Below are positions 1,656-9,127 of a stretch of 32,052 nt of DNA, piece by piece. Source of the DNA: a virus; the IMG/VR virus record IMGVR_UViG_3300045988_137377, positions 1-32,052 of that record; one strand, 5' to 3'. Within the stretch, counting starts at the first letter, position 1. The number at the start of each line of letters is the position of its first letter. The notes below the pieces were generated by a model. It was not told where the DNA came from and ran no database searches. It worked only from the letters and a program-made list of their open reading frames with translations. Made by a program: the position numbers and the translations under genes.

Positions 1656-2558
1656 TTACTTGAATACAACAAATGGCTTCCCCTGCCCGCGCGCCTGACG
1701 CTTAGCAATAGGTCGCCCATTATACTCAAGCTCAGCGGCGCGCCCCATCTCAATGGCAGCCCAATTCTTAGCTATAGCCTCAGTCTGCTTATACAATTTC
1801 TTGATCCGTTGGAAGCGCTCAATGCGAACAGCTGCATCATTTGACGCAACCACAAGTGTGTCGTCAATTTCAGGGTGCAGCTCGCGCGCAGCCTCATAGA
1901 TCGACATGTCACCCTCTTCTTCTGAAAAGTCAGGCTCTACACCATATTCGAGAGACGCAGCAAATTCTGAACACTCTAGACGCATGCGTTCTACATATTG
2001 TTCGTCGTACTCTATGGTGTACTCACGGAACTGCATTGCGATCAATGCCGCAATAATACACTTTTTTACGCCCGTACAAAACATCTGTGCCTGCACCTGA
2101 GCATAATATCCCAGGGGTATACCATCAGCACCCGAACCAGAAGCACCCCATTCTGCCCCATTCATGGCGGTCTTGCACTCTAGTAGCGCTACTACCTCGG
2201 GTGACTTCTTGCCAGCCTCGGGAATGACTATTAATCGATCAGGCGTGGCAGTGATTACTTCACGGCTCCATGCTAGACCATGCGGATTTAGAACAGAATA
2301 TTCGGGGTGCTGCTGCGTGTACCATTGGGCGATAGCGTCTTCTAAGATGTGCCCGCGTTGAGCAACCTCATGAGTAGGCGACTGCCCCTCAATGTTTCCC
2401 TTCATTGTGTGCCATATGGCATATTTAGAGGTGTACGGCGAGACTTTTAGAATCGCAGCAACCTTGGATGCAGTGATTTTCTTCATCCACTCAGGGCTAC
2501 CTGGCTTAAGCGGCTGTTTTATTGCCCTCTTGCGCAGTTGATACCATTTCATTTCCAT
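1656..2558 (-). CDS. YqaJ-like (lambda-Exo/RecE-class, PD-(D/E)XK) recombination exonuclease
   Basis: GSPEWMKKITASKVAAIL...SPYTSKYAIW...RGHILEDAIAQWY...ATPDRLIV...LLECKTA matches the YqaJ viral recombinase layout. It is paired with RecT. Confidence 0.8.
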   Translation of the reverse strand: MEMKWYQLRKRAIKQPLKPGSPEWMKKITASKVAAILKVSPYTSKYAIWHTMKGNIEGQSPTHEVAQRGHILEDAIAQWYTQQHPEYSVLNPHGLAWSREVITATPDRLIVIPEAGKKSPEVVALLECKTAMNGAEWGASGSGADGIPLGYYAQVQAQMFCTGVKKCIIAALIAMQFREYTIEYDEQYVERMRLECSEFAASLEYGVEPDFSEEEGDMSIYEAARELHPEIDDTLVVASNDAAVRIERFQRIKKLYKQTEAIAKNWAAIEMGRAAELEYNGRPIAKRQARGQGKPFVVFK

Positions 2559-2577
2559 TTTCCTTTTATTGATAGTG

Positions 2578-2600
2578 CCGCAGGCTTAGGGAGCCTGCGG
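2578..2600 (-). other. Intergenic 9-bp stem-loop (ccgcaggct/agcctgcgg, 5-nt loop) between two minus-strand genes
   Basis: Perfect inverted repeat seen directly. No U-tract on either side, so its function (terminator, processing site) is open. Confidence 0.4.
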
Positions 2601-2616
2601 AACTTTGTACTACTGT

Positions 2617-2814: not shown

Positions 2815-2912
2815 TTTCTTTCCTTTCGCTGTGTGGCCCTTCCTGGCTACATTTATAGTATATCACCCTCTACCGACTAAACCAAGCCAATAGAGGGTGA
2901 TATTTGCTACAT
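2815..2912 (-). promoter_or_regulatory. Early cassette B: perfect 10-bp-arm inverted repeat (2863-2900), extended -10 TGATATACT (-10 at 2857-2862), long leader identical to cassette A
   Basis: 2815-2887 is identical to 275-347. Arms are tcaccctcta/tagagggtga. Confidence 0.6.
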
Positions 2913-5428: not shown

Positions 5429-5977
5429 TCACATACCCTCTAATGTCCGCATCTGCCTATCACGCTCACGCTCAACAGCCCCACGCCGCATAGAACCAGA
5501 CTCACCCACACCAAAGCTGCGCACAAGCGCACGCACCTCAGGAGGCGGCGGAACAGCCTCCCTTTCGCGCGGCGCACGCGGCGCATCAAGCACGCGCAAA
5601 TCAACCTCACTGCGCACAAACTCAGGTACAGCAGCATATGCTCGCTTCCATGACTCATACACGCGTACAGCAGCCTCGTAATCCTGCTTATCCTCAATTT
5701 CAAGAGACTTGAATTTGGCTGCGAGGCGCGAGCACCTTCCAAGCGCACCGTCAATCTCGGCCTTCATTTCCTGCCAGGTCTCCAAAATGTCCCCCGGTTG
5801 GAGAATAGATATGCGGCGCGTTGAATAAAGTCGCTTTTGCACCTCGCGGGCGTACTTGTCTGGCACCTCTGCACAAATTTCTGCCCACACCGTAAGGATT
5901 TCATCAGGTAGTGGCTTTAAGCGCTGATCTAGCCCGGTGGCGACCGTATAGAGCGCTCGCATTGTGTTTAGTTCCAT
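5429..5977 (-). CDS. Hypothetical protein (182 aa), translationally coupled to the Rep-like gene
   Basis: Overlaps the upstream stop by 10 nt. No motif recognised. Position suggests a replication accessory role (inference only). Confidence 0.55.
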   Translation of the reverse strand: MELNTMRALYTVATGLDQRLKPLPDEILTVWAEICAEVPDKYAREVQKRLYSTRRISILQPGDILETWQEMKAEIDGALGRCSRLAAKFKSLEIEDKQDYEAAVRVYESWKRAYAAVPEFVRSEVDLRVLDAPRAPREREAVPPPPEVRALVRSFGVGESGSMRRGAVERERDRQMRTLEGM

Positions 5978-6933
5978 TGGGTAATTTCCTTTCGATTTTC
6001 TTCAAAGTGCTGTGCGGCGATTTGCGGGGCGTTTTTAAGTGCGGACAGATCGTAACCCATTTGGGCGGCTTTTTGCTCCCATTCGGTCATCTGTGGCTTC
6101 CGAGAGGGGAATACTGCCTCTAGGTCTTCCTCCCATCCGCGACGATTGAGCCAGGTGGACGGGTGAGGAACATATTTTAGCTCGGTACCGCTCTGTGCGA
6201 ATGCGGCTGCGTATGCCCGCATGCCGTCGATAGCGTCCTGAGACTCGCCACGTCGCTCTACAGCCCTCCAGGCGCGCTCTGACGCCTTTTTTCCTACCCG
6301 CCTGGGAACTAGTGCCCAAAACGTATCAAAATCACTTAGAGGGGCGTTCTGTGGCTTCTGATGGGTATTTGCGTTCGATACCTGGACTACCTCGTCAGCT
6401 TTTCGCCAATGCTGCTGAGTATCAGGTTCGATTTTCACAATTGCCTCGGTTCCAAGATCATCATAATCAGCGAGCGCGTCAGCGCGTAGCGGCTCTGTGA
6501 CCTGAGCCACCTCAGCGTCACGGGGGACTATAGGGGGTAAATTAGTATTATTAATAACTTTAGTATTAAGAGGAGTATGCAGCGAAACCGTCGACGGTTC
6601 AACCGCTGTCGGTAAACCTGACAACGGCTCACTATGTGAGACACTTGGGAGCTTCGCAACCATGATCGAAGAACCAAATTTGCCGCCCTCGCGAGACTGT
6701 GAAATCTCCAGATACCCGAGCTCTTGCAATTCGTCGATTAGAGATTTCACTCCCATGCGCCCCATAGGTGATGCCTCGATTAATTCTTGGCGTGAGAGTG
6801 AGTATCCAGGTTTCTGTGAAACGATGAAGCTTATAAGCCCGCGGGCACCCCATGAAAGCCTTGAATCACGCAGAATTTGGTTCGGAATCATGGTGAACGA
6901 GTGCTGGTAGTCGAAATGGTGTATAATATCCAC
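5968..6933 (-). CDS. Replication initiator / replisome-organizer-like protein (N-terminal winged-helix, C-terminal DnaD-like motif); GTG start
   Basis: N-terminus FTMIPNQILRDSRLSWGARGLISFIVSQKPGYSLSRQELIE is typical of phage/plasmid Rep wHTH domains. C-terminus reads FDTFWALVPRRVGKKASERAW...HPSTWLNRRGWEED. First gene of the leftward operon. Confidence 0.65.
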   Translation of the reverse strand: MDIIHHFDYQHSFTMIPNQILRDSRLSWGARGLISFIVSQKPGYSLSRQELIEASPMGRMGVKSLIDELQELGYLEISQSREGGKFGSSIMVAKLPSVSHSEPLSGLPTAVEPSTVSLHTPLNTKVINNTNLPPIVPRDAEVAQVTEPLRADALADYDDLGTEAIVKIEPDTQQHWRKADEVVQVSNANTHQKPQNAPLSDFDTFWALVPRRVGKKASERAWRAVERRGESQDAIDGMRAYAAAFAQSGTELKYVPHPSTWLNRRGWEEDLEAVFPSRKPQMTEWEQKAAQMGYDLSALKNAPQIAAQHFEENRKEITQWN

Positions 6934-6973
6934 CGGGACATCCTTTCTGTTTCTTATTTTCCTTTCCGGAATT

Positions 6974-7008
6974 GCCTCCGAGGCTTTCGCCTCGGGGGCT
7001 TTTTCGTT
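6974..7008 (+). terminator. Textbook intrinsic terminator on the PLUS strand, inside the leader of the minus-strand Rep gene
   Basis: gcctccgaggc-tttc-gcctcgggggc followed by tttttcgtt. It forms an 11-bp stem with one G.U wobble in plus-sense RNA (C.A mismatch in minus sense), a tetraloop and a U-run. Confidence 0.7.
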
Positions 7009-7070
7009 ATCCAGTATATCACGTTAGTGTATGGTGCTATACCAGATGTACATGTGATAATAAACACACA
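7009..7070. promoter_or_regulatory. Divergent promoter region: leftward extended -10 TGATATACT (-10 at 7013-7018, minus) and rightward extended -10 TGTGATAAT (7053-7061, plus)
   Basis: Both -10 elements carry the TGn extension, and the leftward one has the same GTGATATACT context as the cassettes. Palindrome ATGTACAT at 7046-7053 lies between them. Confidence 0.5.
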
Positions 7071-7102
7071 AAAACAGCTTGCGCTTCGACCCATGTAATG
7101 CC

Positions 7103-7384
7103 ATGATTAAATACATGAAATACATTCTGATTCACGCCGACACATTAGAGCACCTGGCACAAAAGCTCACCAAAGTATTCAGGCAGCACGGCAAATACTG
7201 CTCATACGCAACCGCGAAAAAGGTTGCGGAAAAATACACCACAATCGCAGGCAACGGCATACACGCAAAACAGCGAGGCTACGCACGGGCAATGAAATTC
7301 ATCCTACACACCTCAATCGACAACCTAGTCGCCGATCTGCGATACGAAATCGCACAGCAGAAAGTGGTGCGGTTCGATGCGTAA
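7103..7384 (+). CDS. Hypothetical protein, first gene of the rightward operon (start uncertain: TTG 7079, ATG 7103 or ATG 7115)
   Basis: ORF lies downstream of the rightward promoter with no clear SD. No motif recognised. Confidence 0.5.
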   Translation: MIKYMKYILIHADTLEHLAQKLTKVFRQHGKYCSYATAKKVAEKYTTIAGNGIHAKQRGYARAMKFILHTSIDNLVADLRYEIAQQKVVRFDA

Positions 7385-7664
7385 TATTAGCCTGAAAATC
7401 ACCAAAGACAAGTCCGGTGTAGTCGAGGTAAAACCGCATGACACCACAGAGCTAGCATTCGAGGAGAATACTCGCCTAGAAAACGCGCTAAAAGAGCTAA
7501 ACTTCCTGCGGTCATACTCTAGCCGCCTAACCATCCGTCTGGCTTCCTGGGATGCCGTAGAAGCTGCATTCGATGGTGAGAGAGTGCGAGTCGTACCGGA
7601 TAAAACCAAAAATCCGGATAAATATGCAGAAATCTTATTCTCGATTGGTGAAGAAAATGAGTAG
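7377..7664 (+). CDS. Hypothetical protein (95 aa)
   Basis: Its ATG overlaps the upstream stop (ATGCGTAA), indicating a coupled operon. Confidence 0.55.
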   Translation: MRNISLKITKDKSGVVEVKPHDTTELAFEENTRLENALKELNFLRSYSSRLTIRLASWDAVEAAFDGERVRVVPDKTKNPDKYAEILFSIGEENE

Positions 7665-7983
7665 CAAGACGATTCTGCGCCATGTAGTCACTGTGCACAT
7701 TATCGAAGATACGGCGGCACTAAATACATCTCGGCTCTCGCAAGCGGCTTTCAAAAATGCTTACGCACAGTATGCAGCGATAGCCAAAGAGCTAGACGAA
7801 TATGACATGCCACTCACAGATAAGCTCGTATGGCGCACACAGCGTGTAGAAGACCTTGTAGACAAGGCGCTAAAGCGATACGGTATGCGTGTAGCACGAA
7901 GCAAAACCGCCATAGAGTCACTGAATAGCAAGAAAGGCTATTTAGCCCTGCATATTACCCTGGAAGAAGCGAAAGGTGAGTAG
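7657..7983 (+). CDS. Hypothetical protein (108 aa); start moved to ATG 7657
   Basis: MSSKTILRHV follows GGTGAAGAAA and overlaps the upstream stop. The ORF-track start 7573 would overlap the preceding gene by 90 nt. Confidence 0.55.
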   Translation: MSSKTILRHVVTVHIIEDTAALNTSRLSQAAFKNAYAQYAAIAKELDEYDMPLTDKLVWRTQRVEDLVDKALKRYGMRVARSKTAIESLNSKKGYLALHITLEEAKGE

Positions 7984-8329
7984 TAAACACAAACCGCCAT
8001 ATTTGCTATTTCGTTTCGATCATAAAGAGCTTGTGGTGCTTTACAGGCGCAAGCCAGATAAAGACAGGCTCATATACACATTCCGTAGGTTAGTTAGTGG
8101 TGCTGTCGAAATATTCACTCGACGAGGCGACATGAAAAACAGTCCTATAGCAGCAGCAACGTTTGAACTTCCGGAGGAAAACATAGCGAATGCCATAGTT
8201 ACAATGACGGATGCCAGTAAATATGTTGATATTCTAAGCGCATTGCCTTGGGAGGCTGATGTTATTGAGGGCTTGCCTGCTGACGTAGATACACTAATAC
8301 GGGAACGCATTCCTGGATACTATAACTAA
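7976..8329 (+). CDS. Hypothetical protein (117 aa), GTG start
   Basis: GAAAGG precedes the GTG, which overlaps the upstream stop (GTGAGTAG). Confidence 0.55.
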   Translation: MSSKHKPPYLLFRFDHKELVVLYRRKPDKDRLIYTFRRLVSGAVEIFTRRGDMKNSPIAAATFELPEENIANAIVTMTDASKYVDILSALPWEADVIEGLPADVDTLIRERIPGYYN

Positions 8330-8411
8330 ATATGACATATATCACCCTCTCCCAGCTTGGTTTAGTCGGTAGGGGGTGATACACTAGAGATACAAGGAAA
8401 GGAAAAGAAGA
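8330..8411 (+). promoter_or_regulatory. Early cassette E, the only plus-strand copy: inverted repeat 8342-8379, extended -10 TGATACACT (-10 at 8380-8385), leader and RBS
   Basis: 8342-8421 is the exact reverse complement of 1563-1642 (cassette C plus the first 10 nt of the downstream CDS). Confidence 0.6.
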
Positions 8412-8606
8412 ATGAAAAAAGCAATCATCACCGCAATAATCATTAGCGCAGTAGTCATAGGAGCATCAGTAATCGTATGCACCCCCACCCTAAGCATCAT
8501 GGAGTTCGACGCAGAACAAATGGCATACGGAATCTTCGCAATGGCAGCAGCAGCACTAGGCGCACGCGAATACGTCGCGTGGAAAACCCGAAAGGAAAAG
8601 AAATAA
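8412..8606 (+). CDS. Small membrane protein (64 aa, two hydrophobic segments, basic C-terminus)
   Basis: IITAIIISAVVIGASVIVC and AYGIFAMAAAALGA segments. Strong RBS from cassette E. Confidence 0.6.
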   Translation: MKKAIITAIIISAVVIGASVIVCTPTLSIMEFDAEQMAYGIFAMAAAALGAREYVAWKTRKEKK

Positions 8607-8752
8607 TGAAAATCACCGAATACTGCTACAACCTACTAGTAGGGATGTGCATACTCCTGTTTATCGGCTTCACTATCGCCGCAATATTCGGGAATTACTT
8701 CGCTGCGCTGCCAGCGCTCCTGTTCCTCGTAATCCTAAAACTCACACTCTAG
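8606..8752 (+). CDS. Small membrane protein (48 aa, two hydrophobic segments); start at ATG 8606 (TAATG overlap)
   Basis: MKITEYCYNLLVGMCILLFIGFTIAAIFGNYFAALPALLFLVILKLTL. AAGGAAAAG lies upstream. Confidence 0.55.
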   Translation: MKITEYCYNLLVGMCILLFIGFTIAAIFGNYFAALPALLFLVILKLTL

Positions 8753-8764
8753 AAAGGCACACTC

Positions 8765-9010
8765 ATGAAAATCACCAAAAACATTGCAACATTCGGTTGG
8801 GTAATGCTCGGTCTATCCGCATTTCTTCTATGCGTAAACATTCTATCCGCAATGATCGGAGAAACACTCTACGCGGATATGCTGTATGTTGCAGGATGCG
8901 CGATCATCGGAGTAGCGCTACTTGCACCGCACGCACTAGCTGTGTATATGCAATATAAATTGCACCAGATTGAGTATCAAGACGTAAAATTAGCTGATAT
9001 ACTGGATTAG
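8765..9010 (+). CDS. Small membrane protein (81 aa, two hydrophobic segments)
   Basis: MKITKNIATFGWVMLGLSAFLLCVNIL and LYVAGCAIIGVALLAP segments. Confidence 0.55.
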   Translation: MKITKNIATFGWVMLGLSAFLLCVNILSAMIGETLYADMLYVAGCAIIGVALLAPHALAVYMQYKLHQIEYQDVKLADILD

Positions 9011-9080
9011 TACCAAGTAAACAAAACTATCTATAATGGATTCAGGTATTGTTTTCTGGTTTCCGGACGAAACAAAATTA

Positions 9081-9118
9081 TCCCCCGCACCTAATTCATG
9101 TGGCAGGTGCGGGGGATA
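9081..9118 (-). terminator. Convergent (probably bidirectional) terminator between the plus-strand block and the end of the late operon
   Basis: 13-bp perfect stem atcccccgcacct/aggtgcgggggat. In minus sense it is followed by AATTTTGTTT. It lies 10 nt after the holin-like gene stop. Confidence 0.75.
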
Positions 9119-9127
9119 ATTCTATAC

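What the first reader, a model, noticed from the sequence alone, without database searches (positions are those of the whole stretch)
6922..7008. Candidate antisense countertranscript covering the Rep leader and RBS
A strong intrinsic terminator is oriented on the PLUS strand at 6974-7008: an 11-bp stem, a UUUC loop and UUUUUCGUU. Its one non-canonical pair is G.U in plus sense but C.A in minus sense. No plus-strand gene lies upstream of it. It sits inside the 5' leader of the minus-strand Rep mRNA, whose promoter -10 is at 7013-7018 and whose GTG start is at 6933. A perfect plus-strand TATAAT lies at 6922-6927, within the first codons of rep. A start about 7 nt downstream would give a roughly 70-75-nt RNA (about 6934 to 7005). 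Its CU-rich 5' part (ccuuucuguuucuuauuuuccuuucc) is exactly complementary to the rep Shine-Dalgarno region (AGAAAGGA). This is the layout of plasmid ctRNA copy-control systems (pMV158/pIP501 type) applied to a phage replication initiator. A weaker alternative is an insulator that stops antisense transcription from entering the rightward operon.
Basis: partly seen in the sequence, partly recalled or inferred. Interest (0 to 1): 0.65.

Follow-up and report, generated by a model that had tools for sequence, protein, structure and literature searches.

The report
Antisense RNA candidate over phage rep leader
A conserved transcription terminator points the "wrong way" inside the leader of a phage replication-initiator gene, with a perfect promoter -10 box 46 bases upstream, so the phage probably makes a ~70-base antisense RNA that masks the ribosome-binding site of that gene; the mechanism is a familiar plasmid/phage one and its expression is not yet shown.

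Summary
Window 6974-6999 is an 11-bp G+C-rich hairpin followed by TTTTTCGTT on the + strand. It lies in the 5' leader of the minus-strand rep gene (5968-6933; PHROG replication initiator).

Across 24 distinct leaders from related ~32-kb uncultured phages (Rep identity down to about 60%):
- The stem keeps pairing through compensatory changes (97.9% of cells paired).
- All 28 wobble cells are G.U in the + sense and C.A mismatches in the rep sense.
- The + sense hairpin is the more stable one in 24 of 24 sequences.

So this is an RNA terminator acting on the + strand.

TATAAT at 6922-6927 (rep codons Ile3-Ile4) is invariant in these leaders and is TACAAT in one further partial relative. It is the only -10-like motif within 350 nt upstream. 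The host is probably an actinobacterium (Rothia-like), where -10-only promoters are the norm.

The best reading is a ~70-nt cis-antisense RNA (about 6934-7005) that covers the whole rep 5' UTR and its Shine-Dalgarno sequence. It would repress Rep translation and also cause convergent-promoter interference.

Promoter activity and any regulatory effect are inferred, not shown. A pure insulator role remains a serious rival. There is no Rfam match. I classify it as a new variant of a known kind, of moderate interest.

The parts
6922..6927 (+). Candidate -10 box (TATAAT) of the antisense promoter P_as. It is the reverse complement of rep codons 3-4 (ATT ATA).
   Evidence: Sequence. Invariant in 24 distinct leaders; TACAAT in the partial relative L060. 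It is the only TANNNT motif between 6567 and the hairpin apart from overlapping or weaker ones at 6924 and 6955. One of 3 TATAAT on the + strand. Promoter activity is not shown.
6934..7005 (+). Predicted ~70-nt antisense RNA body, with the start inferred 7-8 nt after the -10 and the end in the U tract.
   Evidence: The covariance model built from 21 relatives matches 6934-7005 at 95.6 bits. Both ends are inferred, not mapped.
6934..6973 (+). CU-rich 5' tail, mostly single-stranded. It contains the anti-Shine-Dalgarno sequence UCCUUUCU (6941-6948) and the conserved UUCCGGAAUU next to the hairpin.
   Evidence: Unpaired probability is 0.85 over the anti-SD. Nearly invariant in the main clade. A weak 5' hairpin, GGGACA/UGUUUC, has no covariation.
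6974..6999 (+). Terminator stem-loop: 11-bp stem with a UUUC loop.
   Evidence: Covariation gives 97.9% of cells paired and 3 pairs with double changes. There are 28 G.U cells in the + sense and 0 in the - sense. The + sense is more stable in 24 of 24 sequences.
7000..7008 (+). U tract of the terminator (TTTTTCGTT). It overlaps the predicted first bases of the rep mRNA.
   Evidence: Invariant CTTTTTCGTTATC in the main clade and CTTTTCTGTTATC in the ~60% clade.
6941..6948 (-). rep Shine-Dalgarno sequence AGAAAGGA, 7 nt upstream of the start codon.
   Evidence: Sequence. Conserved in all relatives. Predicted 71% unpaired in the mRNA leader. Complementary to the Gram-positive-type 16S 3' end ...CCUCCUUUCU (general knowledge).
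6931..6933 (-). rep start codon (GTG; ATG in some relatives).
   Evidence: GTG<->ATG at the same position in L058, L059 and L065. PHROG alignments start at residues 5-13.
5968..6933 (-). rep, a replication initiator / replisome-organiser-like protein of 321 aa. It is the target gene and the first gene of the long minus-strand operon.
   Evidence: phrog_270 replication initiation protein, E = 1.6e-33. One source names a relative 'replisome organizer protein'. Distant RepA-like and RepO hits in cultured phages.
7013..7021 (-). P_rep extended -10 (TGATATACT). The predicted rep transcription start is about 7005-7008, roughly 72 nt from the predicted antisense start and convergent with it.
   Evidence: TGnTAnnnT is kept in all relatives with variable n positions: TATACT, TATATT, TATGCT, TACACT, TATAGT. 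The start site is inferred.
7027..7042 (.). Operator-like palindrome GTGTA-N6-TA(T/C)AC between the two divergent promoters (context).
   Evidence: Conserved arms with at least two spacer types among relatives. No binding protein identified.
7053..7061 (+). Extended -10-like TGTGATAAT, the likely promoter of the small plus-strand gene cluster 7117-9010 (context).
   Evidence: Sequence. TGTGA(T/C)AAT in most relatives; L011-L013 and L016 have TGTGAT followed by other bases. Inferred.

Best explanation
The phage encodes a ~70-nt cis-antisense RNA, a countertranscript.

**Transcript (inferred).**
- Transcription starts about 7-8 nt downstream of a -10-only promoter. This is TATAAT at 6922-6927, embedded in rep codons 3-4.
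- It runs on the + strand through the complement of the rep 5' UTR.
- It stops at the intrinsic terminator 6974-6999 plus its U tract, just short of the rep promoter.
- The RNA is a ~40-nt CU-rich, largely single-stranded 5' tail followed by one terminator hairpin.

**Action (inferred).**
- The tail pairs with the purine-rich rep leader, including the Shine-Dalgarno AGAAAGGA and the bases abutting the start codon. This blocks 30S binding.
- Pairing probably also creates a duplex that is a substrate for double-strand-specific RNases.
- The two start sites are convergent and only ~72 nt apart, so firing of one promoter must also interfere physically with the other.
- The RNA is made from every genome copy, so its level should rise with phage DNA copy number. 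That would give negative feedback or temporal shut-off of Rep synthesis.

**Shown here:** the terminator, its strand of action, its conservation, the presence and conservation of the -10 box, and the geometry.
**Inferred:** promoter activity, the RNA ends, and the regulatory effect.
For: 1. The terminator is real and acts on the + strand.
   - It has 11 pairs and folds with z = -5.5.
   - In 24 distinct leaders, 97.9% of stem cells pair. Three pairs show G-C<->A-U double changes, and the observed covariation score is reached by 0 of 500 shuffles.
   - All 28 wobble cells, at four different pairs, are G.U in the + sense and C.A in the rep sense; there are none of the opposite kind.
   - The + sense hairpin is more stable in 24 of 24 sequences, mean -20.6 against -16.0 kcal/mol.
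2. The U tract is invariant.
3. TATAAT is kept in all 24 leaders, including the clade at about 60% Rep identity. In that clade the surrounding rep DNA has fallen to 45-50% identity. The one variant is TACAAT, which keeps T-12, A-11 and T-7.
4. It is the only -10-like motif within ~350 nt upstream of the terminator.
5. The host is probably actinobacterial. The endolysin is 73% identical to Rothia phage Spartoi LysA and the terminase is closest to Arthrobacter and Brevibacterium phages. In mycobacteria 79% of promoters carry ANNNT/TANNNT and no -35 consensus exists (PMC6448022). The phage's own rep promoter is also -10-dominated.
6. No coding use of the + strand is likely. Leader and loop lengths differ by 1-3 nt among relatives, and the shadow ORF upstream is not conserved.
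7. The anti-SD is predicted 85% unpaired in the RNA and the SD 71% unpaired in the mRNA.
8. The architecture equals that of pMV158 RNAII: a single-stranded 5' tail, one hairpin and a U tail, with the tail doing the binding (PMC4485353).
9. Synonymous diversity of rep codons 1-10 is 0.066, against ~0.27 for codons 11-80.
Against: - There is no expression evidence of any kind.
- The promoter has no -35 and no correctly spaced TG.
- Invariance of the two Ile codons is not significant. 38 of 108 invariant-residue codons in rep are single-codon, so two in a row has p of about 0.1.
- AU-rich codons right after a start codon are favoured for translation anyway.
- High conservation of the leader could reflect sense-strand functions or a recombination-prone module boundary.
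- The host is inferred, not known.
- The element is confined to one phage group. More distant Rep homologues (L018, L062, L063, L149) have no such element.
- The logic of 'copy control' for a phage with no recognised lysogeny or partition genes is unclear.
Confidence: 0.55

Rival explanations
1. Insulating terminator only. The hairpin stops pervasive or incidental + strand (antisense) transcription before it runs into the divergent promoter/operator region and the plus-strand gene cluster. Sources could be the TATAAT, the AT-rich patch at 6538-6566 inside rep, or sites further upstream. The short RNA product would have no dedicated regulatory role.
For: - The terminator is selected on the + strand.
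- It ends 8-13 nt before the rep -10 and the operator-like palindrome.
- Evidence for the promoter is only moderate.
- A cluster of TANNNT motifs lies about 430 nt upstream, in the AT-rich patch.
Against: - No + strand gene or strong promoter lies upstream for about 30 kb.
- The nearest and best -10 is only 46 nt away, so what would be insulated against is itself a ~70-nt RNA fully complementary to the rep RBS. Such an RNA would be hard to keep functionally neutral if made in any quantity.
- The ~40-nt tail is far more conserved than an insulator needs.
Confidence: 0.25
2. Sense-strand element. The hairpin functions in the rep mRNA itself as a 5'-proximal stem-loop that protects the transcript from 5'-end-dependent RNases (RNase E/J) or binds a regulator. 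The + strand terminator look would then be a by-product.
For: - The hairpin also folds in the rep sense (-20 kcal/mol in the window) and lies 5-8 nt from the predicted 5' end.
- The window's sense loop is GAAA, a GNRA tetraloop.
Against: - 21 of the 24 leaders carry at least one stem mismatch in the sense strand; in 20 of them it is a C.A that is G.U in the antisense. All one-sided changes favour the antisense.
- The sense hairpin is weaker in 24 of 24 sequences.
- The loop is not conserved in the sense strand: GAAA, AAAA, AAACA, UCCAU, UAAA and others.
- The A-run/U-tract is conserved on the side that only makes sense for + strand termination.
Confidence: 0.1
3. DNA-level element: a protein-binding palindrome, a cruciform, or a single-strand hairpin used for priming or origin function next to rep.
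For: It lies next to the replication gene and to a region that probably holds operators. G.T pairs are also tolerated in single-stranded DNA hairpins.
Against: - The stem sequence changes while pairing is kept. That is the signature of a folded strand, not of a sequence-specific protein site.
- The one-sided G.U pattern excludes a duplex-DNA palindrome.
- The hairpin plus an invariant T run is the canonical intrinsic-terminator form.
- The better origin candidate is the AT-rich repeat patch inside rep.
Confidence: 0.05

Closest known systems
pMV158 RNAII (streptococcal rolling-circle plasmid countertranscript); likewise the antisense RNAs of corynebacterial plasmids pGA1 and pCG1 (cgrI)
   Same: - It is a small cis-antisense RNA opposite the leader and RBS of the replication-initiator mRNA.
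- The architecture is a single-stranded 5' tail, a single terminator hairpin and a U tail.
- In RNAII the tail, especially the 8 nt next to the hairpin, drives binding and inhibits translation, rather than loop-loop kissing (PMC4485353). Here too the ~10 nt next to the hairpin (UUCCGGAWU) are the best-conserved part of the tail in both clades.
- The corynebacterial examples show that the device works in Actinobacteria (references listed in PMC13088423; details from my own knowledge).
   Different: - The replicon is a ~32-kb tailed-phage genome, not a plasmid, and no Cop-type repressor gene is identified.
- The tail is longer: ~40 nt against 17 nt.
- The promoter lies inside the rep coding sequence.
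- There is no sequence or structure homology to any Rfam ctRNA family.
- Expression and effect are untested.
Phage lambda OOP RNA with promoter pO
   Same: - It is a short antisense RNA in a phage replication region.
- It comes from a promoter near the initiator gene O, convergent with the main early promoter, and ends at an intrinsic terminator.
- pO activity modulates replication through interference with pR transcription (PMC3985674).
   Different: - OOP is antisense to the 3' end of the upstream gene cII and acts through RNase III. It does not affect O-P mRNA (PMC3985674).
- Here there is no upstream gene, and the RNA covers the leader and RBS of the initiator itself.
Phage P22 sar RNA
   Same: It is a ~69-nt phage cis-antisense RNA that covers the ribosome-binding region of its target gene and comes from a promoter convergent with the target's promoter. 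(Cited as an antisense regulator of ant in PMC2629481; size and target details are from my own knowledge of Liao et al. 1987.)
   Different: The target is the antirepressor gene ant, in an immunity region and not a replication gene. The host is Gram-negative. There is no homology.

Membership tests
Intrinsic (factor-independent) terminator | G+C-rich stem-loop immediately followed by a U-rich tract on the transcribed strand | tested here: met
   11-bp stem with 9 G-C pairs, a 4-nt loop and TTTTTCGTT. Hairpin energy is -23 kcal/mol.
Intrinsic (factor-independent) terminator | Structure conserved by compensatory change on the strand where it acts | tested here: met
   97.9% of cells paired and 3 pairs with double changes. 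28 G.U cells in the + sense against 0 in the - sense.
Intrinsic (factor-independent) terminator | Actually releases transcripts | not testable with these tools
   Needs in vitro termination assays or Term-seq.
Replication-control countertranscripts (ctRNA; pMV158 RNAII / pGA1 / ColE2 RNAI type) | Discrete small RNA transcribed from the strand opposite the rep leader | not testable with these tools
   Only the signals are seen: a -10 box at 6922-6927 and a terminator at 6974-7008. No transcript data.
Replication-control countertranscripts (ctRNA; pMV158 RNAII / pGA1 / ColE2 RNAI type) | Own promoter convergent with the rep promoter | tested here: inconclusive
   A perfect TATAAT, invariant in 24 leaders, and the only -10-like motif nearby. 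It has no -35 or TGn, and the codon-invariance test is not significant.
Replication-control countertranscripts (ctRNA; pMV158 RNAII / pGA1 / ColE2 RNAI type) | Complementary to the rep translation-initiation region or leader | tested here: met
   The predicted RNA 6934-7005 spans the whole 5' UTR, including the SD at 6941-6948, and abuts the start codon at 6931-6933.
Replication-control countertranscripts (ctRNA; pMV158 RNAII / pGA1 / ColE2 RNAI type) | Sets the copy number or incompatibility of a plasmid replicon | tested here: not met
   The replicon is a circularly assembled ~32-kb tailed-phage genome carrying terminase, tail and lysis genes and no recognised partition gene. Dosage feedback is only inferred.
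Replication-control countertranscripts (ctRNA; pMV158 RNAII / pGA1 / ColE2 RNAI type) | Sequence or structure homology to a curated ctRNA family | tested here: not met
   No Rfam hit at gathering scores. At E <= 10 there are only unrelated sub-threshold hits, none to a ctRNA family.
Lambda OOP-type RNA | Antisense to the 3' end of the gene upstream of the initiator (cII) | tested here: not met
   No gene lies between the rep promoter and rep. The RNA overlaps only the rep leader.
boxB/nut-type antitermination hairpin in the sense leader | Conserved loop sequence (GNRA-like pentaloop) on a short stem, with a boxA nearby | tested here: not met
   The sense-strand loops vary (GAAA, AAAA, AAACA, UCCAU, UAAA and others), and 21 of the 24 leaders have at least one stem mismatch in the sense strand.

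The most novel reading that the evidence does not exclude
The antisense RNA is a true dosage sensor and incompatibility determinant of a non-integrating actinophage. On this reading, these oral (Rothia-type) phages persist as low-copy episomes or carrier-state replicons whose copy number is set by an RNA, as in plasmids.

The ~40-nt tail is nearly identical across the main clade while the operators differ. A resident genome would therefore block Rep translation of any incoming relative. That would be an RNA-based cross-immunity layered on top of repressor-specific immunity.
Probability: 0.1. Interest if true: 0.65.

Novelty: new variant of a known kind. Interest (0 to 1): 0.45.

Why it matters
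Cis-antisense control of replication-initiator translation is textbook biology for plasmids. In phages, the classic antisense RNAs (OOP, sar, c4) act on lysogeny or immunity genes.

If confirmed, this would be a conserved countertranscript sitting directly on the leader of a tailed-phage initiator gene, in a group of uncultured human-oral actinophages. That would extend plasmid-style RNA feedback to phage DNA replication. It would also give a compact handle of about 100 bp for tuning or blocking replication of these phages.

It also illustrates a purely comparative way to assign the acting strand of a hairpin, through one-sided G.U pairs. The mechanism itself would not be new.

Tried and rejected
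- **Rfam.** No family matched at gathering scores over the whole window. At E <= 10 over 6850-7100 there were only weak unrelated hits (snoU49, RsaOG, Ref84, isrL).
- **Near-identity DNA search.** Nothing was found in 50,697 GenBank phage records.
- **Bacterial genomes.** The Rep protein patterns and a 29-nt leader pattern gave no relative in 185,579 GTDB species genomes. There is no integrated prophage and no direct host assignment.
- **Leader 17-mer in IMG/VR.** This returned only the relatives already known, plus chance matches.
- **Distant Rep homologues.** At 25-42% identity, including saliva phage D_HF5_3, rep sits inside operons or behind sense-oriented hairpins. The covariance model found nothing convincing there. 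The element is therefore clade-specific.
- **Second hairpin in the 5' tail.** GGGACA/UGUUUC, with the anti-SD in its loop, shows no double changes and several broken cells. Not claimed.
- **Codon invariance of ATT-ATA as proof of a promoter.** Not significant.
- **A + strand protein gene ending before the terminator (6662-6910).** Rejected as a shadow ORF.
- **N-terminally extended Rep (372-378 aa) called by some pipelines.** Rejected, because leader lengths differ by non-multiples of 3.
- **PDB and Pfam/PHROG searches.** No function was found for the first plus-strand gene, so the operator-binding protein is unidentified.
- **A paper on the pGA1 ctRNA.** It could not be retrieved.
Full report
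**What is in the sequence.** The window is a circularly assembled phage genome of about 32 kb, with a 25-bp terminal repeat. Almost all genes lie on the minus strand. One long transcription direction runs from rep (5968-6933) through RusA-, RecE- and RecT-like genes, across the window ends, into the terminase, head, tail and lysis genes. A small plus-strand cluster (about 7117-9010) diverges from rep. The finding lies in the ~180-bp divergent control region.

- The hairpin GCCTCCGAGGC-TTTC-GCCTCGGGGGC (6974-6999) followed by TTTTTCGTT.
- TATAAT at 6922-6927.
- The rep GTG at 6931-6933, preceded by AGAAAGGA (6941-6948).
- TATACT (7013-7018, minus strand) as the rep -10.

The 321-aa product matches phrog_270 'replication initiation protein' (E = 1.6e-33). 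One source names a relative 'replisome organizer protein'.

**Is it more than chance?**
- The + strand RNA folds at -33.3 kcal/mol, with z = -5.5 and 0 of 200 shuffles as good.
- In the consensus scan of the whole genome this is the top-ranked terminator-like site on either strand.
- One larger hairpin, a bidirectional terminator at 9081-9122, is missed by that scan because its loop is 12 nt. It shows that this phage does use classic hairpin-plus-U terminators.
- TATAAT occurs only three times on the + strand.

**Relatives.**
- There was no near match among cultured phages and none in GTDB genomes.
- IMG/VR, metagenome and Logan/ENA assemblies gave about 35 loci from ~32-kb phages whose Rep is about 60-93% identical.
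- These loci yield 24 distinct leader sequences (alignment A3).
- The endolysin is 73% identical to lysin A of Rothia phage Spartoi. The large terminase is closest to a saliva phage and to Arthrobacter and Brevibacterium phages.
- The host is therefore most likely an oral actinobacterium. This is an inference.

**The hairpin is an RNA element of the + strand.**
- On A3, the ten core stem pairs are formed in 97.9% of 240 cells. With the partner slid by one column the figure is 61-73%.
- Three pairs switch G-C<->A-U on both sides (14 cells). No shuffle out of 500 reaches the observed covariation score.
- Strand asymmetry is more telling. All 28 non-Watson-Crick but pairable cells, at four different stem positions, are G.U when read on the + strand and C.A mismatches when read in the rep sense. 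There is not one case of the opposite kind. I count about six independent events against none.
- Consequently the + sense hairpin is more stable in 24 of 24 sequences, mean -20.6 against -16.0 kcal/mol.
- G.U appears as the intermediate between G-C and A-U at pair 93-105, which is the classic path of compensatory evolution.
- The T run after the stem is invariant. In the rep direction the stem is followed by AAUUCCGG, which is no terminator.
- Loop length and sequence vary, which argues against a loop-specific protein site or a boxB-like element.
- I regard 'a + strand intrinsic terminator under selection' as established, short of biochemistry.

**Where would the terminated transcript start?**
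- TATAAT is invariant in the 24 leaders and TACAAT in one partial relative.
- It is kept even in the ~60% clade (L058, L059, L144). There the adjacent rep N-terminal domain DNA is only 45-50% identical to the window, while identity around the start codon/TATAAT peaks at 0.80.
- The spacing to the hairpin is 46 nt in the window and 38 nt in L058, so the RNA would be about 65-73 nt.
- On the + strand between 6567 and the hairpin there is no other TANNNT except overlapping or weaker ones at 6924 and 6955. The next cluster is an AT-rich patch about 430 nt upstream.
- There is no -35 and no correctly spaced TG.
- In Actinobacteria this is normal. In M. smegmatis 79% of promoters have ANNNT at -10, TANNNT marks the stronger ones, and no -35 consensus exists (PMC6448022).
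- The phage's own rep promoter is defined by a conserved TGnTAnnnT with variable n.

Two tests were less favourable.
- Synonymous diversity of rep codons 1-10 is fourfold lower than in codons 11-80 (0.066 against ~0.27). Another low region exists within rep.
- 35% of invariant-residue codons are single-codon across the 24 genes. Invariance of ATT-ATA alone therefore has p of about 0.1.
- AU-rich codons after a start codon are also favoured for translation (general knowledge).

The promoter is therefore plausible and well placed, but not demonstrated.

**No coding alternative.**
- Leader lengths differ by 1-3 nt among relatives, so no frame runs through it. This also disposes of the 372-378-aa Rep variants called by some pipelines.
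- The 82-aa + strand frame 6662-6910 is an ordinary shadow ORF. Far longer ones are common in this genome, and it is interrupted in L011, L145 and L148.

**Likely mechanism.**
- The predicted RNA (6934-7005) matches the covariance model end to end at 95.6 bits.
- It consists of a CU-rich tail of about 40 nt and the terminator hairpin.
- The anti-Shine-Dalgarno stretch is predicted 85% unpaired. The Shine-Dalgarno in the rep leader is predicted 71% unpaired.
- The rep transcript should start at about 7005-7008, which is 7 nt or so after its -10. This is inferred. If so, the antisense RNA is complementary to the entire 5' UTR and abuts the start codon.
- Binding would block ribosome loading and create a long duplex.
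- The C.A mismatches weaken the sense hairpin by 2-8 kcal/mol, which would ease strand invasion into it.
- This is the design and the binding route shown for pMV158 RNAII. There the single-stranded tail, above all the 8 nt next to the hairpin, drives pairing that then 'progresses upwards into the hairpin stems' (PMC4485353).
- Here too the ~10 nt next to the hairpin (UUCCGGAWU) are the part of the tail conserved in both clades.
- The two start sites are convergent and about 72 nt apart, so transcriptional interference, as shown for lambda pO against pR (PMC3985674), must add to any RNA-RNA effect.
- Dosage-dependent feedback on Rep is an inference from the plasmid paradigm.

**Rivals.**
1. Insulator only (0.25). 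The terminator protects the promoter/operator region from antisense transcription and the RNA has no role. This is hard to separate from the main model without expression data. However, whatever is terminated from the nearest promoter is a full RBS complement.
2. Sense-strand 5' hairpin (0.1). This is contradicted by the one-sided G.U pattern and by the non-conserved loop.
3. DNA-level element (0.05). This is contradicted by covariation and strand asymmetry. The better origin candidate is the AT-rich repeat patch inside rep.

**Comparison with what is known.**
- It works like a plasmid countertranscript (pMV158 RNAII, the pGA1/pCG1 antisense RNAs of corynebacteria) and like phage P22 sar.
- Topologically it resembles lambda pO/oop. 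It fails membership there because OOP targets cII, not O (PMC3985674).
- It is not a homologue of any curated RNA family.
- The replicon is a phage, not a plasmid.
- More distant Rep homologues lack the element.
- I therefore file it as a new variant of a known kind. The terminator is well supported and the RNA and its function are predicted.

**Scores.**
- Confidence that a + strand terminator is under selection: about 0.9.
- Confidence in the ~70-nt regulatory antisense RNA: 0.55.
- Interest: 0.45.

Noticed in passing
window 6514-6600 (core 6538-6567): An AT-rich patch inside rep carries the direct repeat TTAGTATTA twice, at 6541 and 6559. Synonymous diversity of rep codons 111-160 is only 0.01-0.07, against ~0.27 nearby. 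The encoded NTKVINNTNLPPIVP is invariant. This may be an origin of replication embedded in the initiator gene, as in lambda O or P1 repL.
   Followed up: partly
window 9081-9122: A perfect 15-bp inverted repeat, TTATCCCCCGCACCT / AGGTGCGGGGGATAA, with a 12-nt loop. An A run precedes it and T-rich sequence follows. It sits at the convergent junction of the plus-strand cluster and the minus-strand lysis genes and is probably a bidirectional terminator. The terminator scan missed it because the loop exceeds 8 nt. A TATAAT lies just upstream at 9032 (+).
   Followed up: no
window 2537-2609 (+): A second, weak match to the covariance model (23.7 bits). A 12-bp hairpin (2577-2605) with one mismatch lies between a small minus-strand ORF (2617-2814) and the RecE-like gene (start 2558). 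A CU-rich stretch lies opposite the recE Shine-Dalgarno and the T tract is weak. It was found again only in L051, so it is probably just an intercistronic hairpin.
   Followed up: partly
window 2857-2900 (- strand): GGTGATATACT, the same extended -10 as the rep promoter, is preceded by the inverted repeat ATCACCCTCT / AGAGGGTGAT. It lies in the 98-bp gap upstream of the small ORF 2617-2814 and is probably a second minus-strand promoter with its own operator.
   Followed up: no
window 7027-7042 and the same place in L001-L017: The operator-like palindrome GTGTA-N6-TACAC sits between the divergent promoters. Its arms are conserved, but at least two spacer and flank types occur among relatives (TGGTGC against GGAAGG). 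This is reminiscent of immunity-specificity variation. No DNA-binding protein was identified in the plus-strand cluster.
   Followed up: partly
whole window: The 25-bp terminal direct repeat indicates a circular assembly of about 32,027 bp. No integrase or partition gene was recognised, and there is no relative in 185,579 GTDB genomes. The phage is probably non-integrating, and its lifestyle is unknown.
   Followed up: partly
L012 and L016 (IMGVR_UViG_3300006261_000005, 58.5 kb): One IMG/VR contig carries two different rep copies, 85% and 70% identical to the window, about 32 kb apart. It is probably a chimeric assembly or concatemer of two related phages.
   Followed up: no
window 5968-5977: The rep stop overlaps the start of the next gene (5429-5977) by 10 nt. 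This suggests translational coupling, so repression of rep translation could spread to the downstream gene.
   Followed up: no
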